The position numbers and the translations under genes were made by a program. Below, one piece after another: positions 15,081 through 63,132 of a stretch of 64,000 bases of DNA. Source of the DNA: Alphaproteobacteria bacterium. Lineage in GTDB: Bacteria > Pseudomonadota > Alphaproteobacteria > MPNO01 > UBA830. The notes beneath the pieces were generated by a model. The model worked only from the letters and a program-made list of their open reading frames with translations, made no database searches and had not been told where the DNA came from. Every line of letters starts with the position of its first letter. Within the stretch, counting starts at the first letter, position 1. The stretch lies in contig OZ251539.1 in the NCBI GenBank assembly GCA_965243135.1, forward strand, positions 4,384,001-4,448,000, read 5' to 3'.

Positions 15081-18047
15081 TCATGGAAGCCCTTGCGAAG
15101 GGTCCGGGACGAACGAAACGCCCGCCTTTCTTTCTTCGATCAGCCGATCGACTTCGGCTGCGACGGCCATGATTTCGGCCGGCGCGCGCACGGGCTCGCC
15201 GACACGGCGGCGCAGAGCAACCAGCAGTGGCGCAAGCCTGGCGGATCCGTCCTCGTCCGCGGCGAGCGCCTCCGCCAGACCGCGCTCCGGCGCGCCGCAT
15301 GCGACTAGTTCGATCGCGAGCACGAGAAACTCCCGCAACTCTGCCGCATTGTCGGCGTCGTACATGGCCCAAGCGGCCCGGAAAGCGTCGAGCACCGACG
15401 CGTACTCTTTCCGAACGGCCAGCGCCATCATTCGCGGCCATGCCGCGCGGCGGCGCCACTGTTCGTTTTCCTTCAGCTCGTTCAGCTTGAGATCGAGTTC
15501 GTCGCACGTGCGCAAGGCGGCGTCCGCACGTCCGATCCCAGCCTCTACCCAAGCCTTCTGCCACAACGCTCCGACGACCCACGGCCGGAAGTCATGGTGG
15601 TCATTGGCGTCAAACCGCCGCACGAGCCTGTCCCAAGTCGCGATCGCGTCCTCCGATCGGCCGGCCAGTGCTTGCGCCGCCGCTTTGGCGGCCAACGCAG
15701 TAGCGATGTGCGGCTGAACACTTCCTTCGCGTTCCGCTCCGAATCGCCCGTCGATCTCTTCGGCAACCGCGATGGCTTCCGGAGCCCGCCCCAGCTGCAC
15801 CAACGCGGACGCCCTAGTCGCCAGCGCCATCGCAACGGCGTCGCGCAAAACCGGATCGTTCGAAACTCCGAATCGCCCGTCGATCTCGACGCAGAGATCA
15901 ATCGCGTCCGAGCTCCGCTCAAGCTGCACCAGCTCGCACGCCTTCGCCGCCAACGCTCGAGCAACCGCTTCGCGGAAAATCGGCTCGCTCGCGGATTCGA
16001 AACGCCTCGCGATCTCGTCGCAAGCCGAAATCGCAGCCTCATGATTCTCGCGCCACACCAGCCATTCGACCACGGACGACAGCGCCGCGCACACGATTTC
16101 CCGAAGCTCCGAACTTTCGTCGCCTCCAAATTCGTCGACCAGCGCGTCGCAGGTTGCAATGGCGGCATCAATGTCGCCGATCCCGTTCTGAAGGATGCCC
16201 TTGCTGTAAAGCGTCCGTGCAACGACCTCGCGACGCTCGGCATCTTCGTCCGCTCCGAGACAGCGGTCGACCTCGTTCCAGGCAGCAATCGCCGCTTCGG
16301 CATCGCCGATTTGGTCCAGCATAACCCCCTTGTTGTACAAGGCTTTGGCAGCCGTCAGCCGAAGCGGTGGCGCGGCATCGTCGCCGCAATATCCGATTGC
16401 CTCATCAAAGGTTGCTATCGCCGCCGCCGAATCTCCAAGCATGTGTTCCGAAGCGCCCTTGGCGAGGCAGGCCATAGCGACCTGTTCCCGCAGCGCAACG
16501 CGCCCGGCGAAACGTTCGATCGCATCGGCGCAGACGGCAATGGCGGCCGGGTGATCGTCCAGTGCCGCGTGTGCTCTTCCCTTCATCACCATCGCCCGCA
16601 CGACATCCGTCCCGGTTCCCGGGCGCTCGTCCCGGAGGACACGGTTGGCCAGTTCCACGACGCGCTCGTAATCCTCGCCTTCGAACGCGGCCGCGACCCG
16701 CGCAAAAAGATCCGCGCGTTCGTCCGTTCCGGCTCGACGGTCCGAAGCGGCGTGCGCTTCGTGAAAGATCAAACCGGCGAGTCGGGGTTCCATGGCCACG
16801 GCCAAGCGGACGCCTTCCTGAACCGCCGCGGAGGCTCCCGCCTGCGAAGCGGCGAGAATCCGCCGCAGATCCGTGTCGGCGAAACAGGCCGACATGAACA
16901 GAACGAGACTCCGCACGACGAACGCCTGTCCATGTTCTCGGCGGAGCTTGTAGTAGAAGCAATAAAGGCCCTCGGCGGCCGAATAGAGCCGCTTCCTGCG
17001 GGAGCCTTCCGTCAGAACGGCGCCCCGGTCGACAAGCCTGCCGAGCATGGTCGAAACCGTTCGGACGTCCAGCGAGGCGCGAGCCGCTATCTCCCCCGCG
17101 GTCGACGGTTGCCAGAGATCGACCAGAGCCAGAAAGACGCGGCGCTCGATCCTGGGCATTCCATCCAGGTAACTTCGGAAATACTCGGTGTGAACGTCGA
17201 TCAGGGTCGCCAGCTCTTCCATCAGGCGGTCCAGGGAAAGATGGCGGGCGAAACGGGCGACGATGACCAGCAACCTGGGGCTGCCGCCGGTGAGGATTCG
17301 GATGGGTTCGATTTCGCGCTCGGACCTCTCGTCCCCTCCGACGGCCCGCCACAGGCGCTGGCAGGATCCGGCATCGAGAGGTTTCAGACACAGCGTGCGG
17401 AAGAGTTCGAAGAAGGCGTGCCCGGCATCGTCGAGCGCCTCGAAGCGGCTCGTAGCGGTGGCGATCAGGGTTAGGCGCGGTTCGGTTTGCAACGCCTGGC
17501 GCAACCCCCACCCGAAGTCGTCGTCGACGGCATCGGAAAGGGCGTGCAGGTTTTCCACCATGAGGACGAGATGCCGATCAAGCGACTCGCCCGCGCCCAT
17601 AACGGCCGCGCGCGCCCTATCGGCGAGTTCGCGCTCGCGCCAGCGGGACTTCAGATCCGCATGCGATGCGCGGAGTTCGCGAGACAGTTCGGGTTCGACC
17701 GCGGCGAGTTCGTTCGCAAGATAGAACAGCGCTTCGAGCCAGAAATCGGCGAGGGAGAAGACCTCATGACTCTCCTCCATGAACCTCACCGGCAGGAAGC
17801 GCCGGGAGCGTTCCTCGTCGACCCGGAGTTCGGCTGCGAGACGCGCCAGCAACATGGTCTTGCCGCGGCCGCGAGGCGCGACAACCAGGACGTGCTGGCA
17901 CGATGGCGAGTCGAGGTTTTCCTGCACGATCCGGAGCACGGTCTCCAGTTCGACGTTCCGGACCGCGTACTGCGCGATCACTTCGTTGTCGGACTGAAAG
18001 AGTCCGGGGTTGAATTCGCGGACCGTCGGCGGCTGCGGTTCGTTCAT
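15081..18047 (-). CDS. P-loop ATPase-winged helix-TPR protein (988 aa), cassette copy 1
   Basis: Walker A APRGRGKT, Walker B-like LMVEN, TGGSPRL, wHTH TAGEIAARASLD...LGRLVDRG, then TPR-like repeats; start overlaps the upstream stop (TGATG). Confidence 0.88.
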   Translation of the reverse strand: MNEPQPPTVREFNPGLFQSDNEVIAQYAVRNVELETVLRIVQENLDSPSCQHVLVVAPRGRGKTMLLARLAAELRVDEERSRRFLPVRFMEESHEVFSLADFWLEALFYLANELAAVEPELSRELRASHADLKSRWRERELADRARAAVMGAGESLDRHLVLMVENLHALSDAVDDDFGWGLRQALQTEPRLTLIATATSRFEALDDAGHAFFELFRTLCLKPLDAGSCQRLWRAVGGDERSEREIEPIRILTGGSPRLLVIVARFARHLSLDRLMEELATLIDVHTEYFRSYLDGMPRIERRVFLALVDLWQPSTAGEIAARASLDVRTVSTMLGRLVDRGAVLTEGSRRKRLYSAAEGLYCFYYKLRREHGQAFVVRSLVLFMSACFADTDLRRILAASQAGASAAVQEGVRLAVAMEPRLAGLIFHEAHAASDRRAGTDERADLFARVAAAFEGEDYERVVELANRVLRDERPGTGTDVVRAMVMKGRAHAALDDHPAAIAVCADAIERFAGRVALREQVAMACLAKGASEHMLGDSAAAIATFDEAIGYCGDDAAPPLRLTAAKALYNKGVMLDQIGDAEAAIAAWNEVDRCLGADEDAERREVVARTLYSKGILQNGIGDIDAAIATCDALVDEFGGDESSELREIVCAALSSVVEWLVWRENHEAAISACDEIARRFESASEPIFREAVARALAAKACELVQLERSSDAIDLCVEIDGRFGVSNDPVLRDAVAMALATRASALVQLGRAPEAIAVAEEIDGRFGAEREGSVQPHIATALAAKAAAQALAGRSEDAIATWDRLVRRFDANDHHDFRPWVVGALWQKAWVEAGIGRADAALRTCDELDLKLNELKENEQWRRRAAWPRMMALAVRKEYASVLDAFRAAWAMYDADNAAELREFLVLAIELVACGAPERGLAEALAADEDGSARLAPLLVALRRRVGEPVRAPAEIMAVAAEVDRLIEERKAGVSFVPDPSQGLP

Positions 18048-19270
18048 CAGGAGGCTTTCCGAACGGCGTTGCGCTTCGCCAAGGGCGCATGGTGGCCGCG
18101 GAAGCGGCCCGCCCACCAATCCCGAAGCAAGCGGAAGGAGAAACGGTAGCCGCCAAGGCTCGGCTCGAGATAGCCGTCATGTTCGAGCACGCCGAGCGCC
18201 TCCCTGACGCGCTCGGGCGCGTCGTCGACGGCGTATTTCCGCTCGAGCTCGCGCTGCGCATCGGGCGAGAAAACTTTCCAAACGGCAGCTTCGGCGAGGA
18301 TCTCCATGGCGATGCAGTAGGTGTCGTCGTCGAGCGCCTCGCGCAGGCGCGTCTCGTAGTGCATGAGGTTGCCATGTCCCGGAGGACCGAGAAGTCCGGT
18401 GCGATAGGTTTCCTCGACGTCGGCCACGAATACGGCGGAGCCGTCCCGCATTCTGGAAAGGTCCCACAGGTGAGCGAAATGCCGCTGCACGAAGTGGGGG
18501 ATGCCAAGGCCGAGCGCGTCGTAGACGGCGCAGGCGACATCTTCCCCGGCTTCCAGTCCATTGCTTTCCGCAAGTCGGCGAAAGCAGGCGACGCTGGTGT
18601 CGCGATCCCACGGTTCGAGTCGAAACGGAGCCAGATGGTTGATGCGGTCGGACATGCCGAGCCGGTCGACAAGAGGAGCGAGTCCGATGCTGCCCGAAAG
18701 AATCGCCACGAGGGAACCGGCCTCAAGCGTCTGAAACGCATGGCGCATCCAGCTCAGAAATTCGTCGACCCGCCGCTCTCCTTCGGGGTCTCGCAGCAAG
18801 CGCGACAGGAAGACCGGCAGTTCGTCGACGACGAGGAAGACCGGCCGCTCGTGGCCGGCGCAGGTTGCAAACAGTCCGTCACCGACGCGGCGCCAATTGC
18901 CGGCGTTCAGTTCGGCGCGGAATTTCACGCGGAAGTCGGCGGCGGAAATTTCCTCGACGTTCCGCAGTATCGAGCTCATGCCATCGGCAAGGCGTTTCAC
19001 GATGGAACGCGCGAGATGGGCGGCCCGCGCCAGTTCGGCGATGGCGTCCTCGGGGCACGCGGCGTGCTCGACATCGGCGAACAAGGACACCCAGCCATCG
19101 GCCTCCAGTCTTCGTCCGATCTCGCGGGCGATGCTGGTCTTGCCCATGCGGCGTTGCCCGGACAGCAGGACATGATTGCCGTTGCAGATCCGATTTTCAA
19201 GGATCTTGAGTTCGGCTTCGCGTCCGTGGAAGTCATCCCCGACCACCCACCGACCGGTAGCGGATTTCAT
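18047..19270 (-). CDS. STAND-related P-loop ATPase with C-terminal wHTH (407 aa), cassette copy 1
   Basis: FHGREAEL, Walker A GQRRMGKTS, Walker B LVVDE, C-terminal LEHDGYL...LLRDWW. Confidence 0.88.
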   Translation of the reverse strand: MKSATGRWVVGDDFHGREAELKILENRICNGNHVLLSGQRRMGKTSIAREIGRRLEADGWVSLFADVEHAACPEDAIAELARAAHLARSIVKRLADGMSSILRNVEEISAADFRVKFRAELNAGNWRRVGDGLFATCAGHERPVFLVVDELPVFLSRLLRDPEGERRVDEFLSWMRHAFQTLEAGSLVAILSGSIGLAPLVDRLGMSDRINHLAPFRLEPWDRDTSVACFRRLAESNGLEAGEDVACAVYDALGLGIPHFVQRHFAHLWDLSRMRDGSAVFVADVEETYRTGLLGPPGHGNLMHYETRLREALDDDTYCIAMEILAEAAVWKVFSPDAQRELERKYAVDDAPERVREALGVLEHDGYLEPSLGGYRFSFRLLRDWWAGRFRGHHAPLAKRNAVRKAS

Positions 19271-19311: not shown

Positions 19312-19340
19312 CAACAAACAAGTTGTCAACTATTTTGTTG
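19312..19340. promoter_or_regulatory. Tandem CAAC-N6-GTTG palindromes, putative operator of ATPase cassette 1
   Basis: caacaaacaagttgtcaactattttgttg; same geometry at 63098-63126. Confidence 0.55.
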
Positions 19341-21716: not shown

Positions 21717-21836
21717 CTTCCCCCTGCCGCACGATGGGCGGGGTAACCGCCGGCAAAATAGCGCGGCAGTGCAGACGCCTGCTTGCAATCATCCGCATTG
21801 AGATTATATACACTCCAAATCTGGAGAGCGCCTTTC

Positions 21837-22268
21837 GTGCACGCCTATCATCCTGCGACGCGCTACGAGGTCGCGCCCCTTATCGATCTTTCCGACCGCA
21901 GGGAACGCGAGCGGCTCAGCCCGGACGCAGCGCGCACTTTCTTCAATATCATGGCTCGGTGGAAGATCCGTGACGCCGATGGCCGCCAGCTGCTCGGAGG
22001 AATTTCGAACGGCGCCTACTACGCCCTGAAGAAAGGATCCGACCGCACGCTCGACGAGGACAAGCTTCGCCGGATTTCGTATCTCGTCGGCATCTTCAAG
22101 GCCCTGAACCTGCTCTACAGCGAGGATCTGGCGGATCGCTGGATGCAGCTGCCGAATAAAAACAGGATCTTCCGCGGAACGACGCCGCGCGCCTATCTCA
22201 TGCAGGGCGGTCTGCCGGCGTTCGCCACGGTGCGAAAGCTCCTGGATGCGCGACGGGGCGGCCATTGA
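21837..22268 (+). CDS. Xre/MbcA/ParS-type antitoxin
   Basis: GGAGAG RBS with GTG start; RISYLVGIFKAL, WMQLPN and VRKLLDARRGG motifs. Confidence 0.88.
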   Translation: MHAYHPATRYEVAPLIDLSDRRERERLSPDAARTFFNIMARWKIRDADGRQLLGGISNGAYYALKKGSDRTLDEDKLRRISYLVGIFKALNLLYSEDLADRWMQLPNKNRIFRGTTPRAYLMQGGLPAFATVRKLLDARRGGH

Positions 22269-22951
22269 ACGACCCCGCCGTCGCGCGCATCCGGCGACTC
22301 GACACGCATCGGCTCATTCCCTCGAACGAAGGCGCAGACAGCGTGCTCGTCAGAATCGCCGACGACGACGAACACCTTCGCGGCATCTTCGATCTGGATC
22401 ACGCGACCAACGATCGCCTGCTTGCGGAGAACGACCTGTCGCCGGGCATCGGCACCGACGAACTCGTGTTCAACATTCCTCATTGCCGCATCGTCAATGC
22501 GGCCTTCACGCACGCCCATCCCCTCGGCGCCCGGTTCAGCGGGCCGGACCGCGGCGCCTGGTACGCCGCGTTCGAACTGGAAACCTCGCAGACCGAGGTC
22601 GCTTGGCACAAGTCCGTCGAGCTCGCCGAAATAGACTGGCCGGAGGAAAGCATCACCTATGACGACTATCTCGCGGATTTCGGCGGGGATTATCACGACC
22701 TCCGGGGAGACGCGGGTTTCCGGCCATGCCTCGCCCCCGACAGTTACGTCGAAGCGCAGTCGCTCGCGGAGAACCTTCTCGCAAAACGGTCGCCGGGAAT
22801 CGTCTACCCAAGCGTACGCCGCAACGACGGCACCTGCCTTGCGTGCTTCCAACCATCGCTTGTCGGCAACGTTCGCAAGAACGCACGCTATCGCTTTACT
22901 TGGTCGGAACCATTCAGCCCGGAAATCGAGCTTGAAGTGCTCTACGCGTGA
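22265..22951 (+). CDS. RES-domain toxin (NAD+ phosphorylase family)
   Basis: RFSGPDRGAWYAA, TEVAWH and GIVYPSVR motifs; overlaps the antitoxin stop. Confidence 0.9.
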   Translation: MNDPAVARIRRLDTHRLIPSNEGADSVLVRIADDDEHLRGIFDLDHATNDRLLAENDLSPGIGTDELVFNIPHCRIVNAAFTHAHPLGARFSGPDRGAWYAAFELETSQTEVAWHKSVELAEIDWPEESITYDDYLADFGGDYHDLRGDAGFRPCLAPDSYVEAQSLAENLLAKRSPGIVYPSVRRNDGTCLACFQPSLVGNVRKNARYRFTWSEPFSPEIELEVLYA

Positions 22952-34107: not shown

Positions 34108-35307
34108 CTAGTATTTTCCGATAGCCTTGAAATCCAGTTCCACGACCAAATCGTCGACCTCGCCGTGTTTGCCGAACTTTATGAAGTGCATTGCCGATAG
34201 CCGTTCAAGTTCCCGCGAGAAGGTCCTGGTCGTGACGTTTCTGTACGCTTCCCTGATGTACGGGGACTCCAGAAGCTCGGAAAACTTTATCCGCCGCGAC
34301 GGATTGTCGGAGAACGGATCGCCCGGCTCCGTCTGTTCGATCAAAAAACTCAACAGGTTGCGCTCCCTTGCATTGACCGTGCGCCGCCTTTTTCCCGTTC
34401 TCTTGTTGTACGCGCGAACGAGCATGTCTCTGTACACCAATCTGTTCATTTTGGCCTTTATGAAGTTGCTTATGCCCGTCAGCTCCTCGACGAAACCCTG
34501 CAACCCGAAACGGACGAACGGATCGACATCGAAAGGTTGGCAACTCCTGCATTCTTGCAACGTCGTTTTGTAGGCAATCTCGTTCCTGTAAAAATAATTG
34601 GAAAGCCCGTAGAATCCGTGAACGTTATAGCCGCCCCGGAACAGGATTCCGGCCTCGACCAGCCTTGAGACGCGGCCGTTTCCGTCCCCGAACGGATGGA
34701 TCGTCACCAGGAAGAAATGCGCCAGAAGCGCGCTTATGACCGGATGCTGTTCCCGCATGCGGCGCGAGTCGACGAAATGGACGTACTCTTCCATCAAGCG
34801 CGGCACGTCTGCGTGCGGAGCGCCTCGATAGACGCCGCCCAGTTGGGGTGAACCGACGGTAACGGCGAACGTCCTGAAGCTCCCGGGAGAGTTGTTCCGA
34901 ACGTCCGATTCTTCGGTAATCATTCGGTGCATCTTCAGGATATCCGAAACGGACAGCGGTTCGGAACCGGCGGCGAAGCGCTCTCTCGTCCATTTTTGGG
35001 TGAGGTCGGCGTTTCTGATCTGCCGCTGTTCTCTGGTCGCCGCGAGCGCGGGCGTTTCGGGATCCCGCTCGGCCACGTCCATCTGATGCGAGATTTCGGC
35101 CTCCGAAAGAGGATTTCCTTCGAGCGCCGTGGTTCCGTGGACGGCGCGTATCCGGTTGAGCCGGTCCAGGCGATCGTGCCAGTGGGGCGGCAGGATCAGG
35201 TTCAGCGCCGTCTGCTTGTGCGCATCGACCGCCACGAGATCCGGCACGAGACCGGTCGCATCGAGGTTCCAATCGAAGGCAAACGAGTCCCATTCCATGG
35301 CAGACAT
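34108..35307 (-). CDS. Fic family protein with probable C-terminal wHTH
   Basis: HPFGDGNGRVSR catalytic motif; TTALEGN helix; C-terminal TTRTFSRELERL. Confidence 0.93.
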   Translation of the reverse strand: MSAMEWDSFAFDWNLDATGLVPDLVAVDAHKQTALNLILPPHWHDRLDRLNRIRAVHGTTALEGNPLSEAEISHQMDVAERDPETPALAATREQRQIRNADLTQKWTRERFAAGSEPLSVSDILKMHRMITEESDVRNNSPGSFRTFAVTVGSPQLGGVYRGAPHADVPRLMEEYVHFVDSRRMREQHPVISALLAHFFLVTIHPFGDGNGRVSRLVEAGILFRGGYNVHGFYGLSNYFYRNEIAYKTTLQECRSCQPFDVDPFVRFGLQGFVEELTGISNFIKAKMNRLVYRDMLVRAYNKRTGKRRRTVNARERNLLSFLIEQTEPGDPFSDNPSRRIKFSELLESPYIREAYRNVTTRTFSRELERLSAMHFIKFGKHGEVDDLVVELDFKAIGKY

Positions 35308-37289: not shown

Positions 37290-37922
37290 GTTCCGGATCC
37301 TCAGCGTGGATGGCAGCCGACAGTGTAGCGAAGTTCGAAATGCTTGGCCTTCGGTCTGGTTTTCGCTCTCCCGCCGCTTCCGGACCGTCTTGCGACCGGC
37401 CGCGCACCGTCGCCCGGGAGCGGACCGCCCATCGCCACGCCGCGCAAGGCATGGGATCGACTTCGGGCCGGCTCCTTCCCAAAATCCTGGCGACGTCTCC
37501 GGTAACTCGACAAACCGGTGAACGCTGGCCTGCGCTCGCCATCGCATGACGACCTTCGTTCCGTGCAAAGATCCGCACGCTACCGAAAACCAGGCGTCCG
37601 GCGTCGTCTCCCGGCGAATAGTCGGCAACAACGCCCCGGCTCCGCTCCAGCATCCCGGCACGCAGAATGATCAAGAGATAATTTGGCAGCCCTCCGGCCG
37701 GGTCCGAAAGACCGCGCCGATCGCCGACGACGGATCCAAAAAGCCGTCTATCATGCGCTCAAGGAAAAGAGTTTACCCCGCGTCGCATCGGCGACCGGAG
37801 ATCTCAAGACGCCTTACGCCGCCTCGCCTTCCATGGCGGCGCACCCGTCTTCGATTCGCAACCTTGATTCGCCATCGGACATAAAGTATGCTACTCGCGG
37901 ATTCTTTCTAAGGACGCCAATC

Positions 37923-40047
37923 ATGGAAATCGTGTTCGGTGAGAATTCACGCGATCTGGAGGTAACGACCCTCCGCGAGATCCTGAAAAACATGAATATA
38001 TCCGGAACGCTCTACTTGGGGTATCCGGTTCTGTCCACAGCCGACGCTAAGGTGTTTATCGACGCCCTTCTGATCAGCGATTCGCACGGCTTGGTCGCGT
38101 TCGATTTATCGTTTCAACAGAACATGCAAACCGTAGAAGACGAAATAATGAAACTAGAGGAGCGGCAAGATCAAATATACGCTGTCCTATACAACAAACT
38201 CAACACGCGCAAAGACCTTCGCAAGGGTCGTTCCGTCGCCATAAAAATCAATGTCGTCAGCTGTCATCCGGAACTAGCCAACATCGGTCGACGGGAAAAC
38301 GTCATCGCTTGCGCGCCTGCCGAACTCCCCGACGTCATGAACGATTTTGAAGGCGTACCTGAAGAGTTTCTTCGCCCTCTTCAGGCCGCCATTCAGAGCG
38401 TTTCTACGCTACGGCCTCCAAACCGCAGAGAAGGCGTAAAAAAGACTGGATCTCGAGGCGCCATACTGAAGATTGTCGAGAACGAAATCGCAAACCTCGA
38501 CCAATGGCAGAAGAAAGCCGCTATAGAATCCGTCAACGGACCGCAAAGAATTCGGGGGTTGGCCGGTTCCGGAAAAACCGTCGTGCTGGCGCTGAAGGCC
38601 GCGTACTTGCATGTGCGACACCCAGAATGGAAGATCGTCGTCACCTTTCAAACACGGTCTCTTTACCAGCAATTTCGGGATTTGATCAGGCGTTTCACTT
38701 TTGAGCATGAACAAAATGAACCGGATTGGAACAACCTTAGAATTATGCACGCTTGGGGAAGTCAAAGCAATTACGGCGTCTACTCCACAATCTGCGAACA
38801 TTACGGAATCAGCCCACAAAATTGGAAAACGGCAAATAACAAATATTGGGAGTTGCGCTTTTGAGGGAGTTTGTAAAGAAATTAAATCAGCAATCGACAA
38901 ACACGGCCATAAATCCATTTTCGACGTCATATTGGTAGATGAAGCTCAAGATTTTCCATCAGAATTTTTTCAACTGATATACCACGTTGTCGCACCTCCT
39001 CATCGTATAATTTGGGCCTATGACGATCTGCAAAATCTCGGCGATTACGTAATGCGCGGCGACCGCGAGCTTTTCGGATCTGACGGCAACGGACAACCTT
39101 TGGTTGCGTTGGAAAATCGCGCCGACAACCCCAGAGAGGATATCGTTCTTCCTGTATGCTACCGCAATACGCCCTGGACATTGACCATGGCCCACGCGCT
39201 GGGTTTCGGCATTTACCGCAGAGAGGGGTTGGTCCAGATGTTCGAGGAACCGTCTACCTGGACGCGAATCGGGTATGAAAGACACCGAGGAACTTTGGCG
39301 CTTGGACAAAACGTGAGCCTCCGCCGTGCGGCCCACTCATTTCCCAAATACTTCGAAGAATTGCTCGACCGGGAAGATGCGATCATTTGCAAGACGTTTT
39401 CAAGCAATTCACAACAATATGAAGCGCTCGCCGAATCGGTGAAAACGAACATGGTGCAAGACGAACTGGATCCGACCGACATCCTGATCGTGTTGCCGGA
39501 CGCTTACGCTTTCCGAAAAATTGGCGGGGCGATTCTGCAAACGCTGTTCGCGAAAGACATTAGTGCGCATCTCGTGGGCGTGACCAGCAGCACGGACGAG
39601 GTATTTCAATCAGGATCCGTTGCGATAACTCATATATTTAGAGCCAAGGGAAACGAAGCGCCAATGGTTTACATATTGCATTCGGAGTATTGTCAAACTG
39701 GTTTCGAACTTCGTCGAAAAAGAAACATGCTTTTCACGGCGATTACTAGGTCGAAATGTTGGGTACGACTATTCGGGGTTGGCGATAGCATGGACAGCCT
39801 TCGTTCGGAGATAGAGGAATTACGTCGCAAAAATTTCGAAATCGAGTTCGATTACCCGAGCGAAGATCTCATCGAGCACCTTGCAAAGGTTCATCGGGAC
39901 GTGACGGATGATGACCTCAAGTCTTGGGATCAAAAAATCCACAACGTCGATGAAGTCCTTACCGCGCTAATTGAAGGTGATCTGCCGCGGGAGGCGCTTT
40001 CTCCTAAATTGCTCAAGAAACTGACCGAACTTAACGGCCGCCAATGA
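37923..40047 (+). pseudogene. SF1 (UvrD-like) helicase with NERD-like N-terminus, split by a +1 frameshift
   Basis: GLAGSGKT in the first frame; DEAQD, YRN, AKGNEA and FTAITR in the second; removing one T at ~38847 joins KY to GSCAFEGVC. Confidence 0.85.
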
Positions 40048-40727
40048 GCGTAGGCAGGCTGTGTCGCGACATCACGAATTTCGGTTTCAATATGATCGAG
40101 GCGGAATTCGCTTGGGACGCCAACGTCCACAAGGTTGACCAGATTTCCGCAAATAAAGAAGCGCTTATATGGGTACAAAATCAAGATTTACATGCGATGA
40201 TAGAGATTCCGTCACGAGTTAATGACTATTGTTCCCTTATTGCCTCCAAAGATTATTCCTACCTTATGAACGACGGCGGAATCATACAAACCGCTTACAT
40301 GTACGATAATGATCGGATCTCCAAGCATAGGCTTCTTTACTTCCCTTGTCCTTTTCGGATCGACGATTACGAAGTCGGCGAGATCACGGGAGAATTGGTG
40401 CCTTTGCTTGATCGGATCGTCGAAACCGAAGATTTTCCGGATAATTTTCTTTTGCGGTCTCCCATCCGTTTCGATTACGCGCCCCACGATGCCTCCGAAT
40501 TCCACCCGGCGTCCCATATGATCCTAAATGATCCGGATTGTCGGATACCCGTGAAATCCCCGCTTCGCGTCCATACCTTTATCCAGTTCGTTTTCGAGAA
40601 TTTCTACTTGACCGCGTGGAAACATCCCGGCGTCCAGGAATCCTTCGCTCGACTGCGAGAGGAGGGACGGGAGGGAGAATGTCTTTCCGCCCATGACAGA
40701 GAGCTCGCGTTTCTCGACTGGAATTAA
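40044..40727 (+). CDS. DUF2290 domain protein (partner in the helicase-DUF2290 defence system)
   Basis: ATGA overlap with the helicase; KHRL.YFPCP, PIRFDY, HPASH, CRIPVKSPL and FVFENFY motifs. Confidence 0.8.
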   Translation: MSVGRLCRDITNFGFNMIEAEFAWDANVHKVDQISANKEALIWVQNQDLHAMIEIPSRVNDYCSLIASKDYSYLMNDGGIIQTAYMYDNDRISKHRLLYFPCPFRIDDYEVGEITGELVPLLDRIVETEDFPDNFLLRSPIRFDYAPHDASEFHPASHMILNDPDCRIPVKSPLRVHTFIQFVFENFYLTAWKHPGVQESFARLREEGREGECLSAHDRELAFLDWN

Positions 40728-50762: not shown

Positions 50763-51782
50763 TCAAGGTAACAATTCATCTAATCGTTCGCTTGAACCGA
50801 TATAGCCTATGGCGTATTTCGTTATCATTTTTTGCAAGTCCTCCGCGAATATAAACTCTATGTTGTTGTCTTTTCCTTTCTGCCTAATTTTTTCATTATC
50901 CTCCTTATTTGATCTAGTAACTACGATGACTTTTGAAATCAATTTCAAGTCTTTTTCTATTGGATCTGCGTTCCAGTATTCCGCTTTTTCTATCTGTTCA
51001 ATCGCGTGATCGTCGACTTGTCCCTCATAATCCTTAACTTGAACGGCTATCACATACTGCTTCCCTGGAGAAATCCCGGGAATTTTAATTCGTATATCCG
51101 TGCCATGCTTTATCTCTTCACGCCCACCAACCTTCTCAATAACAGCATCTGGATAATGCATCTGCAAGATTTTCGCAACGATCCCTTCCCACTCCTTTCC
51201 ATTAATTTCTCTATTGAGCGTTTCGAAAACTTCATTTCCAAAATCTTTCACTTTACCAAAGGCGCTTCCAGTAATTATATTTTTCAGTCTATCGAATTCG
51301 GTTATCCCGCCGCGAAGTTTCTCCGAATCCGCATCAATTATTTTCTCAATATCATCACAATAATGATCAATGTTCCAAAATCGACTTTGGTTTTTCAACG
51401 TCGCGCGGATATTGCCTGTCACCGGCTCGCCATCTCTGCGGAATTGCTTGAGGTGTCGCGCCGGAAAAATATGTCCATGGTCTTCGTCCAAGATAGAGAA
51501 ATCGTAGCCTCTATTCCAATCGTCTGTCGCCTCGACGACAGAGACCTCGGTCCAATCCGGCAGTCTGGGCACGAGGAGGATATGTCCCTTTTTGACTTCT
51601 TTGAACATCCTCATGTTTCTGGAAGCGCCCTCGTCGACCGTCAAACGTCGAAGATCTTGTCCCTCGTCCCATCCCCATCCTTGGCGCAAGCGCCCCTCCT
51701 GCAACTCTTTCCACAGGAGGCCAATGTTGCTGGTATCGATCCGGCAACCCCAGTATCGGCGTTCCTCGATCATGGTTGACAT
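50763..51782 (-). CDS. Mrr-like restriction endonuclease with an N-terminal putative DNA-recognition domain
   Basis: AAGGAG RBS; C-terminal GTDI...AVQVK (D...QxK); N-terminal LRQGWG domain. Confidence 0.75.
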   Translation of the reverse strand: MSTMIEERRYWGCRIDTSNIGLLWKELQEGRLRQGWGWDEGQDLRRLTVDEGASRNMRMFKEVKKGHILLVPRLPDWTEVSVVEATDDWNRGYDFSILDEDHGHIFPARHLKQFRRDGEPVTGNIRATLKNQSRFWNIDHYCDDIEKIIDADSEKLRGGITEFDRLKNIITGSAFGKVKDFGNEVFETLNREINGKEWEGIVAKILQMHYPDAVIEKVGGREEIKHGTDIRIKIPGISPGKQYVIAVQVKDYEGQVDDHAIEQIEKAEYWNADPIEKDLKLISKVIVVTRSNKEDNEKIRQKGKDNNIEFIFAEDLQKMITKYAIGYIGSSERLDELLP

Positions 51783-51979
51783 TCTCCTTGTACGCCTCGC
51801 GCAAAAAAACCTTCGGCATCAAGCTTATCTGGCGAGTTCCTTCATAGGAATACCCCCCCCTGTCAACTCCGAAGTGCAACGCCGGCGGGCGCAGTTGATA
51901 GAAGGCTTCGGACCTCATGAATGAGGCTCTCGGACCGGCACTGGAACGTTCTCCCGGTGCCGGACAGCGGCTCCCGGCC

Positions 51980-58761: not shown

Positions 58762-61700
58762 CTACGATCCCGCAGCGTTTGCCTGCGACAGTTTCCGCCT
58801 CAATTCCGAAAGTTCGCGCTGGATGTCTTGGGCGACTTCCGCAACCTCTCGGGCCACGCGAGGTTCCTGTCCGAGTTCGCGTCGCAAAGCAGTGATGAAG
58901 GGCAACAGAAGCCTCGCGGACGGAGACGCCTCGGCGAGGTCGATTACCGTCGCCGTATCGCCGCGCAGGCTCAGATATCCCAACACGCCGATACAGTCCA
59001 TCGGCAGCGGGACGATTGTCGGCAGAAGCGCCAGCATGTCCGCCACATCGCTCGTCCACGAGGCCCGATCGCCGATTTCGCGACGGGCAATGGCCCGAAT
59101 GCCGTATCCCTTGATCCGGACAGAGGAATTCGCGTTTTCCAACGCCCCCGTCGCCAAGCTGGCAGCTGCCTCGTAGCGTCTGTTCTTCATCTGAAATTCG
59201 GCGCCTTCGAGAATCAGAGACGGAATCCGTTCGCGCATTACTCGCAAAAAATGGTACTGCGAATGCGTTTCTTCGCACTCGTCGATTATTTGTACAGCCT
59301 GTCGAAAAGCGTTTTGCGCCTCTTTCGATCGATACAGCCCGATCAGCGTGGAGCCCTTCGTCACCAGCGCCCACGCGATCAGTAGCCCCGCATCGGGGAT
59401 TTCCCGCGTCTTGAGCGAGGCAACGGTTTCGTCAAGAATTGTCAGTGCGTCTTCCGGCCGGCCGGCCATTGTCAGCGCATAACTCTTCGCGACGGACACA
59501 AATGCCAAGGTTTCGAACGATTCTTCGGCAGTCTTCGCCCGGTCAAGGGTGCTCAGCCCTTCTTCCGTTCGGTCCGCCGCCGCCTGCGCAAACCCTTTCG
59601 CCGCAAGCGCCAACGCAAGGAGGAAAGCGTTCTCGGATTCGCCGCTCAACCGGTCGACGGCCTCTTCCGAAGTCTTGAGCGCCTCTTCCGTCCGTTCCAT
59701 GGTCATCAACGCAAACGACTTCATCGTCAATGCCTCGACGGCAATCGGCTCACGTATATTTCCCGCCCGCCTAATGGCCTCGTCGAAGTCCTTCAGAGCC
59801 TCTTCCCGCCGGTTCATCGTAAAATGCACGAAGCCCCTCGTCGTGAACGCTTGCGCCACAGCGAGAGCAACCGGAGGGTCATCGTTCGTCCTGAATTGTT
59901 TTACGATATCGTCCAGCATTGCCAATGCGGTTTCCGGCTTCATGGTTATCGCAGCCAAACTTTTCATTGTCAGCGCCTGTGCGATGGCCGGAGCGACCCT
60001 CGGCTCCTTGCTGGCACCGAACATCCGTATGGTTTCGTTAAAAGCGTTCAACGCTTCTTCCGGTCGATTCAGATCATCGAGCGCGACGCCCCGGCTTGCC
60101 AGAGCCTGCGCTACCGCCTGAACGGCGAACGGGTTTTCGATTCCGTCGAACCGCTCTACGGTTTCGTCAAGAACGCTCAGCGCTTCCTCGGGACGACCCG
60201 CCGCAATCAGCGCGGCACCCTTGTTCATAAAGGCGATTGCGACCGCCGGGTAATCGGTTTGCCCAAATCTCCTTATTGTTTCGTCAAGAACGTTCAGCGC
60301 TTCCTCGGGGCGATCCATCACAGTCAGCGCGAACCCCTTGTTCACAAGAGCCCGCGCAATCTGTGGCGCGATTTCCGGTGCGTCAGTCTCGCCGAATTCT
60401 TCAATTAGGCCATCATATATCTTCATCGCGTCTGGAATTTCTCCTGATTCCAAGAAAGCATTTCCCTTGTCTATGGAGTCGGAAATCCGGGATGCAACAA
60501 CGGCCATGTTTTCGCCGTCTCCTGATAAAATTCCGCCCGCCATTTCGTCAACTTTGTTGAGGAATCTGCCGTGAAATCCAATCATCATTGGCGCTACATG
60601 CTTTTGCGCAGCGCCGTGAAGCAAGCTTCCGCCGGCTCCTTCCTCCGCAATTCGCGCCACTATGTCCCTTAGTTGGGGCGACGAATAGAAGGACGCCATG
60701 AAACGGATGAGCGATTCGACCATGCTGTCCAAACCTCCGCGCCCTCTCCGGAGAAGATAATAGATGTTGTACAGTCGTTCGGTGACACAATACTGTTTGC
60801 GACGCGCCGAACCTCCAGCGGTCTGCACAACGCCCCTCTCGGAAAGACGTTGAAGCTGGGCGCTGCATTTGCTTGTGTCGAGCCGCGCCCTATCGGCGAT
60901 TTCCCTTGCGGTCGCAGGCTTCCAGAGTTCTGCAAGAGCAAGGTAAACTCGCCGTTCCTGAGCCGGGAGCGCGTCGAGATGGCCCTTGAAGTACTCCGTG
61001 TGATCGTCGATCAAACTCAGCAGATTGTCCATGAGTTCGCCTAACGACGGCTTCGCGCTAAAACGCGCCACGATCATGACCAACCTGGGATTGCCGCCGG
61101 TCAGTATCTCGATTGATCGGGCGGCTTCCGGAGCGGGAGGTTGGCCGGATACCGTCTCCCAGAGAGCCGCGCACTCGCCCGTGCGAAGGGGGTGCAACGC
61201 AACGACCCGAAAAAAACCGTAGAACGCTTCGCTCGGCTCGTCGATCTGCATGAACCGGCCGGTAGCGCTGGCGAGCAAGACGATGCGAGGTTCCGTTTGG
61301 AAAATCTGACGAAGCCGCCATGCATCGTGGGACTCGGCCATGCTAGCCAAAATCATGTTCATGTTCTCGACGAGAATCACCAGCCGCTTGCCTTCGCGAT
61401 CCGCGAAATCGAGCAGCGCACTCAGGCAAAGCGCGGAAAGCGCATAATCGTCCCGCTCGTTTCTCAGATCGTCCCGACTTAGGAGCAGATCGGGATCGCC
61501 ATCCCGCCGCGGCGCCTGTTCGGCCAGATGAGACAGGCATTCCAGCCAGAATTCCCCGCAGGTGCCTATCTCGTAACTTTCCTCGGGAAAAACGACGGGA
61601 AACAAGCGGGACGAAAGCTCGCTATCGCGCCGGATTTCGATCGCGGCCCGCAGAAGCAGGGTCGTCTTGCCGCTTCCGCGCGGACCGATCACCATCATGT

Positions 61701-61836
61701 GCGGATTGGAAGCACCTGTGCATTCGCGCAGGGTTTCGACGACCGATTCGAATTCCCTCCTGCGTACGCAGAACGACTCCGCGAGCTGATCGTCGGTCAG
61801 GAATCCCGGGTTGTATTTCACGGCGGCGACGGACAT
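58762..61836 (-). CDS. P-loop ATPase-winged helix-TPR protein (1024 aa), cassette copy 2
   Basis: KYNPGFL, GPRGSGKTT, ILVEN, TGGNPRL, wHTH TAREIADRARLD, then TPR-like repeats. Confidence 0.88.
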   Translation of the reverse strand: MSVAAVKYNPGFLTDDQLAESFCVRRREFESVVETLRECTGASNPHMMVIGPRGSGKTTLLLRAAIEIRRDSELSSRLFPVVFPEESYEIGTCGEFWLECLSHLAEQAPRRDGDPDLLLSRDDLRNERDDYALSALCLSALLDFADREGKRLVILVENMNMILASMAESHDAWRLRQIFQTEPRIVLLASATGRFMQIDEPSEAFYGFFRVVALHPLRTGECAALWETVSGQPPAPEAARSIEILTGGNPRLVMIVARFSAKPSLGELMDNLLSLIDDHTEYFKGHLDALPAQERRVYLALAELWKPATAREIADRARLDTSKCSAQLQRLSERGVVQTAGGSARRKQYCVTERLYNIYYLLRRGRGGLDSMVESLIRFMASFYSSPQLRDIVARIAEEGAGGSLLHGAAQKHVAPMMIGFHGRFLNKVDEMAGGILSGDGENMAVVASRISDSIDKGNAFLESGEIPDAMKIYDGLIEEFGETDAPEIAPQIARALVNKGFALTVMDRPEEALNVLDETIRRFGQTDYPAVAIAFMNKGAALIAAGRPEEALSVLDETVERFDGIENPFAVQAVAQALASRGVALDDLNRPEEALNAFNETIRMFGASKEPRVAPAIAQALTMKSLAAITMKPETALAMLDDIVKQFRTNDDPPVALAVAQAFTTRGFVHFTMNRREEALKDFDEAIRRAGNIREPIAVEALTMKSFALMTMERTEEALKTSEEAVDRLSGESENAFLLALALAAKGFAQAAADRTEEGLSTLDRAKTAEESFETLAFVSVAKSYALTMAGRPEDALTILDETVASLKTREIPDAGLLIAWALVTKGSTLIGLYRSKEAQNAFRQAVQIIDECEETHSQYHFLRVMRERIPSLILEGAEFQMKNRRYEAAASLATGALENANSSVRIKGYGIRAIARREIGDRASWTSDVADMLALLPTIVPLPMDCIGVLGYLSLRGDTATVIDLAEASPSARLLLPFITALRRELGQEPRVAREVAEVAQDIQRELSELRRKLSQANAAGS

Positions 61837-61852
61837 CGGCCTTTTCCCTAAC

Positions 61853-63085
61853 TCAACGCTTATACGCCGGAACGAAATTGCCGCCATGCCGTGCCCGCCA
61901 CCAATCCTCCAGCAAACCGGACACAAATCGATAGTTACCGTCTGATTCTTTGGCAAGGTAGCCGTCGTGCACAAGAACATCCAAGACATCGGAAGTCGGA
62001 GTCGAACTCCCGTTCGGTAACGACGAAAAATAGTCGCGATGGCCCTGTATAGCTTCGTCAGAAATCATGCCACCGCTCATCGCAGCATCGGTCAGCAATT
62101 CAAGAGCCATACGATAACTGTTATCACCAAGAGTCTCCCTCAGTCGCTGTTCGTAGTGATCCAAGTCGATCTGGCCAACGCTCCCGAGCATATCGTGGAG
62201 ATAAACATGCTCAACGTCGTCTAGCGTGGCCTCGCTCCGTTTGTGTCGACCGAGATATTCATGAAGCGCGTCGAAAAACTGTTGCACATGATGAGGGACA
62301 CAGCAGCGTAAACGGCAGCATATTTCACGGGCCACGTCTTCCGCAAGATCGATCTCGTAGTTCTCCGCTAACGCCATAAGACAGGCCGCAGCTGTTTCTT
62401 CCAACCATGGTTTCAGTTCATAGGAGGAAAAAATATTTGCATGAGCGCTCAATCCTGCCTGCCGCAGGATCGGTTGAAGCCCCATACTTCCAGAGACGAT
62501 TATGCAAACATTCCCCCTATGGGCTTGTCCGTTCTTGCGCAGAAAACTCAAAAAAAGGTCCGCAGCCTCCTTGCGTTCGATCGTGATCCTGTAATCGTCT
62601 CCCTTGAGCAGCCGGTTGACGAGTATAGGCAGTTCGTCGACCGCCAGCACCACGGGCCGGCCGCAATCGGCAAATGCCTTGAATATCCGATCACCCTCGT
62701 GTTGCCAGTTCCCAGGGTCAATACTAGCACGCATCTTGACCCGAAACGAACCGATTCTTGCTTCGTCGAGATGTTCCACAATGGTCCGCCAACCAGCCGC
62801 CAACCGTCCCCGCTTGCCATTCGTTGACCGGAGGGCGGTATCAAGTTCAGCGATGGCCTCCGCAGCGTTTCGGGTGCCCTCCAAATCTACAAAAACGGTC
62901 TCAAAACGCCCTGTCTCTGCAAGTCGACGCAGCAATTCGCGAACCAGGCTTGTCTTCCCCATCCGCCGCTGTGCTGTCAGCAACGTGTGGGTTCCGTTTT
63001 CGACGCGCTCCGTAAGAGCCGAGAGCTCAACCTCCCGGTTGAAAAAGCGCTCGCCAGACACCCAGTTTCCACCAGCTTTCTTCAT
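61853..63085 (-). CDS. STAND-related P-loop ATPase with C-terminal wHTH (410 aa), cassette copy 2
   Basis: FFNREVEL, AQRRMGKTS, LAVDE, LVHDGYL...LLEDWW. Confidence 0.88.
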   Translation of the reverse strand: MKKAGGNWVSGERFFNREVELSALTERVENGTHTLLTAQRRMGKTSLVRELLRRLAETGRFETVFVDLEGTRNAAEAIAELDTALRSTNGKRGRLAAGWRTIVEHLDEARIGSFRVKMRASIDPGNWQHEGDRIFKAFADCGRPVVLAVDELPILVNRLLKGDDYRITIERKEAADLFLSFLRKNGQAHRGNVCIIVSGSMGLQPILRQAGLSAHANIFSSYELKPWLEETAAACLMALAENYEIDLAEDVAREICCRLRCCVPHHVQQFFDALHEYLGRHKRSEATLDDVEHVYLHDMLGSVGQIDLDHYEQRLRETLGDNSYRMALELLTDAAMSGGMISDEAIQGHRDYFSSLPNGSSTPTSDVLDVLVHDGYLAKESDGNYRFVSGLLEDWWRARHGGNFVPAYKR

Positions 63086-63091
63086 CGCCCT

Positions 63092-63132
63092 ATTTCCCAA
63101 CGAATTTGATTGCAACAATGTCGTTGGGAAAT
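63092..63132. promoter_or_regulatory. Perfect 12-bp inverted repeat containing the tandem CAAC-N6-GTTG element, upstream of cassette 2
   Basis: atttcccaacga (63092-63103) and tcgttgggaaat (63121-63132). Confidence 0.6.

What the first reader, a model, noticed from the sequence alone, without database searches (positions are those of the whole stretch)
15081..19270. Paired-ATPase/TPR cassette present twice: candidate undescribed sensor or defence system
Seen: the same two-gene unit occurs here and at 58762-63085. A ~410-aa ATPase-wHTH (QRRMGKTS, DE) precedes a ~1000-aa ATPase-wHTH-TPR protein (PRGxGKT, unusual VEN Walker B), with a TGATG overlap here and a 16-bp gap in copy 2. The ATPase/wHTH regions and the extreme C-terminal cap (LxPxxxALRRxxG...RxxxExxxVAxx) are conserved between copies, while the TPR arrays have diverged strongly. 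No nuclease, TIR or SIR2 effector is visible. Known: STAND NTPases with TPR sensors (Avs, bacterial NLR-like proteins) recognise phage proteins, but are usually single polypeptides with an N-terminal effector. Inference: a sensor/helper NTPase pair with variable ligand specificity. I cannot match it to a named system.
Basis: partly seen in the sequence, partly recalled or inferred. Interest (0 to 1): 0.82.

Follow-up and report, generated by a model that had tools for sequence, protein, structure and literature searches.

The report
Self-regulated paired ATPase and TPR-sensor cassette
Two diverged copies of a widespread, horizontally spread two-gene unit, a small working ATPase plus a large ATPase-like protein with a fast-evolving TPR array behind its own conserved operator, look like an undescribed immune-type sensor switch with no visible killing part.

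Summary
The window has two paralogous two-gene units: 15081-19270 and 58762-63085, both on the minus strand. The large proteins are 30% identical and the small ones 39%. The pair is a strict unit elsewhere: in 80 of 80 public loci, plus 5 of 5 more fetched from genomes of the same class, the large gene directly follows the small one. No third gene is conserved.

Both proteins fold like ORC/Cdc6 and archaeal PF01637 ATPases, with STAND proteins as more distant matches. The small protein has canonical Walker motifs. The large one has an invariant E-N in place of the Walker B D-E. It also has a TrmB-type winged helix, a TPR array variable in length and sequence, and a conserved C-terminal cap.

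77 of 80 upstream regions carry a conserved double palindrome around a TTGACA -35 box, so the cassette probably represses itself.

The cassette is patchy among relatives and shared across many phyla at about 60% identity. It often lies beside defence, toxin-antitoxin or mobile genes, and copy 2 sits directly beside Dsr1. PADLOC has no model for it and I found no paper describing it.

A defence or conflict role is inferred, not shown. This scan noted what looks like the same kind of cassette earlier in another genome (e1-5219450).

The parts
19312..19340 (-). Copy 1 operator: double palindrome CAAC-N6-GTTGACAAC-N6-GTTG with a TTGACA -35 box at its centre, 42-70 nt upstream of the small gene's ATG
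18047..19270 (-). Copy 1 small ATPase, 407 aa: Walker A GQRRMGKTS, Walker B VVDELP, helical lid with a GIPH motif, C-terminal winged helix with an HDGYL motif
15081..18047 (-). Copy 1 large protein, 988 aa: ATPase-like module (PRGRGKT, Walker B position reads VEN), TrmB-type winged helix, TPR array, conserved C-terminal cap. Its ATG overlaps the small gene's TGA by one base
15084..15443 (-). Copy 1 C-terminal cap (last 120 aa of the large protein; core ...LAPLLVALRRRVGEPVRAPAEIMAVAAEV...)
63097..63127 (-). Copy 2 operator, subfamily-B form: CCAAC-N6-GTTGCAATC-N6-GTTGG, ending 11 nt before the ATG
61853..63085 (-). Copy 2 small ATPase, 410 aa, 39% identical to copy 1
58762..61836 (-). Copy 2 large ATPase-wHTH-TPR-cap protein, 1024 aa, 30% identical to copy 1; 16-nt gap after the small gene

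Best explanation
Each copy is a self-contained, horizontally mobile, self-repressed two-gene sensor switch of the ORC/Cdc6-STAND ATPase class. It most likely belongs to the conflict or anti-phage repertoire.

Shown:
- A near-consensus sigma-70 promoter lies inside a conserved double palindrome.
- It precedes a roughly 407-aa ATPase with complete catalytic motifs.
- A large paralogue follows, and the gene spacing suggests translational coupling.
- In the large protein the Walker B D-E is invariably E-N.
- The large protein also carries a TrmB/MarR-type winged helix, a TPR or HEAT array that varies in length and evolves fast, and a conserved C-terminal cap.

Inferred mechanism:
1. The large protein, probably through its winged helix, sits on the palindromes and keeps the operon low.
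2. Its TPR array binds a foreign, probably phage, or stress-related protein.
3. Ligand binding frees the ATP-bound but hydrolysis-poor large subunit to assemble with the small, hydrolysis-competent subunit into a hetero-oligomer. This resembles Orc4-Orc1 or sensor-helper NLR pairs.
4. The operon is derepressed at the same time.
5. No enzymatic effector is present, so the output is probably exerted by the assembled ATPases themselves, through DNA binding or ATP consumption, or through a host factor.

The two copies in this genome would be two specificities.
For: - Unit and coupling. 80 of 80 loci have the large N-module directly downstream of the small gene. In 71 of 79 the estimated distance is -28 to +45 nt, and 28 overlap. 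5 of 5 further loci show the same order.
- No third gene. No flanking family is shared by more than 8 of 82 loci.
- Fold. The small protein's model (pLDDT 85) matches best to 2qen and 2fna, then archaeal Orc1/Cdc6, then CED-4, a plant NLR and Avs3. The large N-module (pLDDT 79.5) gives the same set of matches.
- Paralogy and Walker B change. A profile-profile match at E 1.5e-4 aligns LVLMVENL with VLLVIDEL. E165-N166 is invariant in 21 of 21 sequences.
- Winged helix. TrmB is above the Pfam cut-off in both large proteins. There is a MarR match in the PDB at E 7.6e-5.
- Operator. 77 of 80 upstream regions hold GTTGAC[AG][ATC]C, against a background of 0.0048 per equal window. TAnnnT lies 16-18 nt after TTGACA in 49 of 70, against 14, 14 and 1 at control spacings. 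In the whole genome the motif occurs only before copy 1 and at one orphan site.
- Fast-evolving sensor.
- Accessory and transferred. Found in 7 of 61 related genomes and 5 of 401 genomes of the class. About 60% identity in records labelled with roughly ten phyla.
- Neighbourhood. Dsr1 and a PD-T4-5/Abi-like gene lie next to copy 2. 15 of 68 loci have a PADLOC-type defence gene within two genes, and 23 of 68 when toxin-antitoxin and Abi toxins are included. Integrases or transposases flank 4 of 5 alphaproteobacterial loci.
- One small gene with two large genes in 4 of 80 loci.
Against: - No effector domain was found in either protein, nor in the Pfam lists of the 120 best large homologues.
- No PADLOC model matches.
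- No relatives were found in phage records or IMG/VR contigs. Only 2 distant plasmid hits were found.
- The neighbourhood counts have no matched control set. Most immediate neighbours are metabolic or housekeeping genes, or have no hit.
- A winged helix plus an operator is also what a plain signal-responsive transcription factor would show.
- Loss of hydrolysis from the E-N change, binding between the two proteins, and which protein binds the operator are all inferred. The complex prediction never ran.
- No expression data are available.
Confidence: 0.5

Rival explanations
1. It is an autoregulated, ligand-sensing transcription regulator of the MalT/AfsR kind (ATPase, TPR, DNA-binding domain). 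It serves ordinary physiology, with the small ATPase as a co-regulator.
For: - TrmB-type winged helix.
- Conserved palindromic operator over its own promoter.
- TPR sensor and no effector.
- Some loci sit inside housekeeping contexts, for example between T2SSF and T2SSE, or between ComEC and a DsbH-like gene.
Against: - The operator occurs nowhere else in the 6.1-Mb genome except at one orphan site, so no regulon is visible.
- No conserved neighbouring target gene exists.
- Distribution is patchy and cross-phylum, and several genomes hold multiple diverged paralogues.
- Mobile-element and defence neighbours are frequent.
- No LuxR/GerE-type output domain is present.
Confidence: 0.2
2. It is a selfish or addiction-type module, or a maintenance function of integrative mobile elements. 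In that case the tightly repressed ATPase pair is harmful when derepressed and mainly ensures its own retention.
For: - Self-repression architecture.
- Mobility without any fixed partner gene.
- Location among IS elements and integrases.
- Toxin-antitoxin cassettes inserted within or beside it.
- 8 of 79 loci have a truncated or frameshifted small gene.
Against: - A fast-evolving TPR array of up to about 1200 aa is hard to explain without a variable ligand.
- It is rare on plasmids and was not found on phages.
- The ATPase modules stay about 60% identical across phyla, which argues for a selected cellular function.
Confidence: 0.12
3. It is an ORC/Cdc6-like replication initiator pair bound to iteron-like repeats of a cryptic element.
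For: - ORC/Cdc6 proteins are among the best fold matches, including an Orc1/Cdc6 heterodimer on origin DNA.
- There are repeated palindromes next to the genes.
Against: - The repeats span only about 30-70 bp and coincide with a sigma-70 promoter.
- No replication, partition or element-boundary genes are conserved nearby.
- The TPR array and the degenerate Walker B are not initiator features.
- The cassette sits in many different chromosomal places.
Confidence: 0.04

Closest known systems
nSTAND2 two-gene operon predicted by Kaur, Iyer, Burroughs and Aravind (eLife 2021, PMC8195603; section on GT4 domains read)
   Same: It is a mobile two-gene operon in which both products are STAND-type NTPases. 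One has damaged NTP motifs, and the pair is predicted to form a hetero-multimer. It was described by prediction only.
   Different: In nSTAND2 the inactive partner has eroded NTP-binding motifs and is fused to an effector (GT4 or HEPN). Here the altered partner keeps Walker A and carries a TPR sensor and a cap, and no effector exists. Sequence relationship to nSTAND2 could not be tested because I had no model or sequences of it. That paper's source-data files were not opened.
Avs and bacterial NLR-like STAND defence proteins (Lee et al., Nature 2026, PMC13581612; abstract, phylogeny section and passages read)
   Same: They combine an NBD-helical-winged-helix ATPase module with a large, variable, mostly TPR-like C-terminal sensor. 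They show horizontal transfer and defence-island neighbours. Avs3 appears among the fold matches.
   Different: Avs proteins are single polypeptides with an N-terminal effector. PADLOC AVAST models do not match the proteins here. Here there is a separate second ATPase, no effector, a DNA-binding-type winged helix and an operator. That paper's supplementary clade tables were not opened, so the large protein may lie in one of its 589 clades.
Archaeal PF01637 (ATPase_2) AAA+ proteins PAB2304 (PDB 2qen) and SSO1545 (PDB 2fna)
   Same: These are the best structural matches of the small protein (E 4.9e-10 and 1.3e-9, TM 0.71 and 0.64 on the target) and among the top three for the large N-module. They share the same ATPase-lid-winged-helix layout. 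There is a weak sequence match at E 1.9e-5.
   Different: They are single proteins whose PDB titles name no function. The titles show no paired partner, TPR array or operator. The window's own small proteins stay under the Pfam cut-off for PF01637 (29.0 against 33.2 bits, or no hit).
ORC/Cdc6 initiators, especially the Orc1-Orc4 arrangement, and plant or animal sensor-helper NLR pairs (comparison from general knowledge)
   Same: These pair one hydrolysing subunit with one that binds ATP but hydrolyses poorly. They have winged helices that contact DNA. Orc4 is the best sequence-level PDB match of the large module's ATPase region (E 1.6e-4).
   Different: There is no evidence here of origin function. 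The helper carries no executioner domain, unlike helper NLRs.

Membership tests
STAND NTPases (class of Leipe et al. 2004; defining features recalled) | NBD, helical domain and winged-helix module of the ORC/Cdc6-derived type | tested here: met
   The models of both proteins match CED-4, a plant TIR-NLR and Avs3. ORC/Cdc6 and PF01637 proteins rank higher.
STAND NTPases | Match to a curated STAND model at its threshold | tested here: inconclusive
   nSTAND_NTPase5 (PF25199) scores 34.2 bits against a cut-off of 34 for the copy 2 large protein, and 18.1 bits for copy 1. nSTAND1 gives only weak matches. Some precomputed Pfam lists of homologues include PF20703 or PF25199.
STAND NTPases | GxP motif in the helical domain and a His-Asp motif in the winged helix (motif definitions recalled) | tested here: inconclusive
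   TGGxPRL is invariant in the large protein. P258-H259 (GIPH) and H364-D365 (HDGYL) are invariant in the small protein. Their structural positions were not checked on coordinates.
Avs / AVAST defence systems | Single polypeptide with N-terminal effector domain; match to PADLOC AVAST models | tested here: not met
   No effector domain was found. None of the four proteins gave an AVAST hit.
nSTAND2 two-gene system (Kaur et al. 2021) | Two adjacent STAND NTPase genes in one mobile operon | tested here: met
nSTAND2 two-gene system (Kaur et al. 2021) | Inactive partner fused to a variable effector (GT4 or HEPN) | tested here: not met
   The altered partner carries TPR or HEAT repeats and a cap only.
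nSTAND2 two-gene system (Kaur et al. 2021) | Sequence membership in the nSTAND2 clade | not tested
   I had no nSTAND2 model or sequences. No Pfam match named nSTAND2 appeared at E<=0.01.
PF01637 ATPase_2 (archaeal-type AAA+) | Pfam gathering score | tested here: not met
   P0004 scores 29.0 bits and P0003 24.2 bits against a cut-off of 33.2; P0002 has no hit. Many homologues carry PF01637 in their precomputed lists, and the fold match is the best one.
MalT/LuxR-type STAND transcription regulators | C-terminal LuxR/GerE DNA-binding domain | tested here: not met
   There is no such Pfam match. The C-terminal cap matches no family.
Any system in PADLOC-DB 2.0.0 | Full-length match to a system protein model | tested here: not met
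   The best match is mad8 at E 7.4e-7, covering the P-loop region only. PDC-S01 scores E 0.002.

The most novel reading that the evidence does not exclude
This would be a bacterial sensor-helper NLR-type pair that needs no enzymatic effector. Ligand capture by the TPR array would trigger ATP-dependent, ORC-like co-assembly of the two winged-helix ATPases on DNA, coupled to self-amplifying derepression of their own operon. The assembled ATPases themselves would then block replication or transcription of the invader or of the cell.
Probability: 0.22. Interest if true: 0.85.

Novelty: new variant of a known kind. Interest (0 to 1): 0.62.

Why it matters
If the cassette is a defence system, it would be a large family. 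Counts, each a lower bound:
- at least 3648 clusters at 90% identity for the large protein;
- at least 531 loci among species-representative genomes.

Current defence catalogues miss it because it has no recognisable effector. It would also be a prokaryotic counterpart of paired sensor-helper NLRs and of the Orc1-Orc4 division of labour.

The conserved operator gives a direct experimental handle through reporter fusions and footprinting. The TPR diversity, including one-helper-two-sensor loci, offers a natural set of specificities for trigger screens.

If it turns out to be only a self-regulating transcription factor, it is still an unusually mobile and conserved one.

Tried and rejected
**Complex prediction.** One search gave no usable answer. 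It never ran, so there is no result.

**RNA runs.** No RNA holder was listed, and no reads were laid.

**Fused forms of the small ATPase.** None among longer proteins at E<=1e-10. The tool itself calls this weak evidence.

**The C-terminal cap as an effector-associated adaptor with a second copy elsewhere.**
- In the window's own genome the cap profile finds only the two large proteins; the third hit has E 0.47.
- Among 1.84 billion representatives it finds 923 proteins at E<=0.001.
- In all 150 best hits the cap is C-terminal.
- Of the 146 new hit sequences read, 53 show N-module motifs. Those of the shorter ones whose starts I printed begin inside large-protein sequence, so I take them to be fragments.
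- The cap has no profile similarity to the small protein.
- I therefore rejected this idea for now.

**The cap as a LuxR-type HTH.** Considered on the look of the sequence. No Pfam match was found.

**Promoter and terminator consensus scans across both copies.** Nothing above the shuffled controls. The scan did not pick up the operator promoter.

**ESM Atlas.** It returned only 'ATP-binding protein' clusters.

**tRNA genes as island borders.** There are none in the window.

**Literature.** Searches found no description of this pair. The nSTAND5 search returned unrelated papers.

**Formal defence-island enrichment.** Not done.


Full report
**1. Observation**

The window (63.5% G+C) holds two minus-strand gene pairs.
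- Copy 1: small gene at 18047-19270 (407 aa) and large gene at 15081-18047 (988 aa).
- Copy 2: small gene at 61853-63085 (410 aa) and large gene at 58762-61836 (1024 aa).

The large proteins align end to end at 30% identity (E 9e-101). The small ones align at 39% (E 2e-86).

The junctions are as described. Copy 1 has a TGATG overlap, and copy 2 has TGA, 16 nt, then ATG.

Pfam finds AAA_16 and AAA_22-type P-loop domains, a TrmB-type winged helix and TPR families. The genome of 6.1 Mb has only these two copies, 44 kb apart.

**2. The pair is an obligate, self-contained unit**

The small protein has at least 1485 relatives at 90% clustering (E<=1e-5, 7998 candidates scored). They are nearly all 405-415 aa, and the only name seen is 'ATP-binding protein'.

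Of these, 531 were confirmed relatives. The best 80 loci are all metagenome-assembled genomes. Their titles name Acidobacteriota, Latescibacterota, Alpha- and Gammaproteobacteria, Binatia, Nitrospirales, Caldilineaceae, Gemmatimonadota, Thermodesulfobacteriota and Spirochaetia. Identities to copy 1 are 56-68%.

- In 80 of 80 loci the large protein's N-module lies directly downstream on the same strand.
- In 71 of 79 loci with both frames readable, the estimated distance is -28 to +45 nt, and 28 overlap.
- In the other 8, the small frame is truncated or shifted.
- Five further loci fetched from four genomes of the same class show the same order, 5 of 5.

I clustered all open frames of at least 90 aa from 82 loci. 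Only the pair, and frames overlapping it that I take to be shadow frames, are widely shared. No flanking family occurs in more than 8 loci.

Pairwise identities of the small protein and the large N-module correlate at Pearson 0.88 over 68 loci, against a maximum of 0.37 in 500 label permutations. This shows co-inheritance. It does not by itself show contact.

Four loci (L016, L027, L038, L064) have one small gene followed by two complete large genes.

**3. What the proteins are**

The small protein's model (pLDDT 85.3) is closest to the archaeal PF01637 ATPases 2qen and 2fna. Next come archaeal Orc1/Cdc6, RuvB-type proteins, CED-4, a plant NLR and Avs3. The large N-module (pLDDT 79.5) gives the same set, with ORC subunits first. 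Sequence profiles reach 2qen for the small protein (E 1.9e-5), and Orc4 (E 1.6e-4) and a MarR regulator (E 7.6e-5) for the large one.

BLASTP sees no similarity between the small and large proteins. A profile-profile comparison does (E 1.5e-4, 149 columns). It aligns the P-loops, aligns VLLVIDEL with LVLMVENL, and aligns a shared W-LR..LQ motif. The two are therefore old paralogues.

In the large protein the Walker B Asp-Glu has become Glu-Asn, invariant in 21 of 21 sequences. From general knowledge of AAA+ enzymes, I infer ATP binding without efficient hydrolysis. The small protein keeps all motifs. The large protein has an invariant SRF after strand 4. This could be a trans-acting arginine, as in clamp loaders and Orc4, but that is inference.

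**4. Variable middle, conserved ends**

Across 74 large proteins:
- the N-module is 69% identical on average;
- the middle repeat region is about 36% identical and 0-1216 aa long;
- an 85-aa window over the C-terminal cap is 46% identical, with a much better conserved core, PL(I/V)VALRxRxGExVRAPxEVLEVAxDI.

Whole proteins range from 508 to 1741 aa if one 235-aa broken frame is left aside, with a median of 869 over all 79.

In six close relatives of copy 1, the N-module is 91-94% identical, the repeat region 68-77% and the cap 82-86%.

The Pfam lists of the 120 best large homologues hold only P-loop, winged-helix, nSTAND5, TPR and HEAT families plus a few stray entries. No nuclease, TIR, SIR2, protease or other effector appears.

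The cap occurs only at the C-terminus of this family. It resembles nothing in the small protein.

**5.

A word search of earlier findings returned e1-5219450. It describes what looks like the same kind of cassette on another genome, 'behind their own conserved repeat operator'. I tested this.

- In the 160 nt upstream of the small gene, 77 of 80 regions (78 loci plus both window copies) contain GTTGAC[AG][ATC]C.
- 67 of 80 contain at least one CAAC-N5-7-GTTG palindrome.
- 50 of 80 contain a strict double palindrome.
- In the remaining 2.61 Mb of locus sequence, both strands, the three patterns occur 77, 174 and 4 times.

The consensus of 70 sites is TCAACAAAattGTTGACAACAaatTTGTTGa, followed by TAtatT. 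A TAnnnT hexamer lies 16-18 nt after the TTGACA in 49 of 70 sites, against 14, 14 and 1 at control spacings. A near-consensus sigma-70 promoter therefore has its -35 box in the centre of the operator and the second palindrome in its spacer. This is the classical layout for autorepression.

Copy 1 carries the site at 19312-19340. Copy 2 and three of four other subfamily-B loci carry a variant, CCAAC-N6-GTTG(G/C)CAA(C/T)-N6-GTTGG, just before the ribosome-binding site.

In the whole genome the copy-1-type motif, with up to 2 mismatches, occurs only before copy 1 and at one orphan site 5 kb beyond copy 2. The reversed control pattern gives 0. There is thus no sign of a regulon.

The TrmB/MarR-type winged helix of the large protein is the likeliest binder. 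This is inference.

**6. Distribution and neighbourhood**

The small-protein profile finds matches in 7 of 61 related genomes including the window's own. That is 1 of 4 in the same genus, and 1 of 25 and 5 of 14 in two families. Several of these genomes hold two or three copies. In an even sample of the class it is found in 5 of 401 genomes.

I found no relatives in phage records or IMG/VR contigs, and two distant plasmid hits.

Copy 2 lies in a lower-G+C block of 54-61%. Directly downstream of it on the genome strand... more precisely, directly upstream of copy 2 sit a complete Dsr1 gene (PADLOC 1546 bits) and a PD-T4-5/Abi_2-like gene.

For the public loci through L074 (68 loci), I scanned the nearest gene on each side (130 proteins).
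- 10 loci have specific PADLOC hits: restriction-modification parts, AbiEi, HNH, and PDC-M24B, PDC-M03B, PDC-S32 and PDC-S01.
- About 22 neighbours are toxin-antitoxin, Abi, restriction-modification or mobile-element genes by Pfam.

I then scanned the second-nearest genes: 113 of 147 proteins, leaving out long ones and loci after L074. This adds 5 more loci, with type IIG and type IV restriction, PDC-S06, a DRT reverse transcriptase and others.

In sum, 15 of 68 loci have a PADLOC-type defence gene within two genes. The figure is 23 of 68 when toxin-antitoxin and Abi toxins are included. No control set was scanned, so this is descriptive. Most neighbours are metabolic or housekeeping genes or have no hit.

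Four of the five alphaproteobacterial loci lie among transposases or integrases, and one of them also lies beside PDC-S01. MazEF or Doc cassettes sit between the tandem large genes of L016, L027 and L064.

**7. Interpretation**

The shown facts define a mobile, self-repressed cassette encoding two paralogous ORC/STAND-like ATPases. One is catalytically complete. The other has an altered Walker B and carries a DNA-binding-type winged helix, a rapidly diversifying repeat sensor and a private cap.

The most economical reading is an immune-type sensor switch, as set out under best explanation, with a confidence of about 0.5.

The main rival is a plain ligand-responsive transcription factor. The absence of any other operator site or conserved target, and the accessory, transferred, multi-paralogue distribution, weaken that rival. 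The missing effector is the main weakness of the defence reading.

**8. Comparison with what is known**

PADLOC-DB 2.0.0 has no model for either protein. NCBIfam has no family for them.

The closest printed precedent I found is the predicted nSTAND2 two-gene operon of Kaur et al. 2021 (section read). It has two STAND NTPases, one of them inactive. There, however, the inactive partner bears GT4 or HEPN effectors.

Lee et al. 2026 catalogue 589 STAND clades (abstract, one section and passages read). Their main text does not mention a helper ATPase pair, and I did not open their supplementary tables.

Seven literature searches gave no description of this cassette.

Within this scan, e1-5219450 appears to describe the same kind of cassette in another genome. 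A look-up by the small protein's sequence found no look-alike windows, so the identity of the two families is not verified.

I rate the finding a new variant of a known kind: STAND/ORC-type sensor NTPases, in paired form. It is real and widespread, and its function is untested.

Noticed in passing
window 63206-64000, continuing to L087:206-3988 (G000:C1:4447206-4450988), minus strand; and L087:4015-4815: A complete Dsr1 (SIR2-type defence protein, 1260 aa, PADLOC PDLC02183 at 1546 bits) lies directly upstream of copy 2. A 266-aa PD-T4-5/Abi_2-like gene lies upstream of that. Together with copy 2 they form a lower-G+C block of 54-61%.
   Followed up: partly
L087:5264-5292 (G000:C1:4452264-4452292): This is an orphan operator-like double palindrome, CAACAAGGTTGTTGGCAACAATATCGTTG, of the subfamily-B type. 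It is the only such site in the genome outside copy 1. It lies between the Abi-like gene and a stretch of broken frames, one of which has a weak DruA-like hit. The frame that follows it is not ATPase-like. It may be a relic of a lost cassette.
   Followed up: partly
window 37683-40727: A low-G+C (about 50%) island holds the PADLOC candidate pair Helicase (PDLC03002) plus DUF2290. The helicase is split into two overlapping frames, 37683-38864 and 38701-40047, matching model positions 2-307 and 306-703. This suggests a frameshift.
   Followed up: no
window 34108-35307 and 21783-22951: There is a SoFic-like Fic protein (PADLOC E 2e-44). There is also a Xre-type antitoxin plus RES-domain toxin pair about 2.5 kb from copy 1.
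   Followed up: no
window 50763-53524: An AAA-ATPase_like plus PDDEXK_9 protein lies at 51980-53524. It sits next to a low-G+C 339-aa frame with a weak Mrr-type nuclease match.
   Followed up: no
L016:11960-13161, L027:11699-12693, L064:11855-13330: In loci with one small and two large genes, the space between the two large genes holds a MazF/MazE pair (L016, L027) or a Fic/Doc gene (L064).
   Followed up: yes
L007, L012, L030, L032: The cassette sits between T2SSF and T2SSE genes in two Acidobacteriota records. It sits between ComEC and a DsbH-like gene in two Nitrospirales records. These look like insertions into otherwise ordinary gene rows.
   Followed up: no
protein P0306 (282 aa, from the representative library): It begins like the small ATPase (MRAATGRWV...) and ends with the large protein's C-terminal cap. 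It may be a deletion chimera between the two genes, or an assembly artefact.
   Followed up: no
L022 and L096: PDC-S01 (AAA_14 plus DUF4143) lies next to the cassette in two unrelated loci, at 275 and 558 bits.
   Followed up: no
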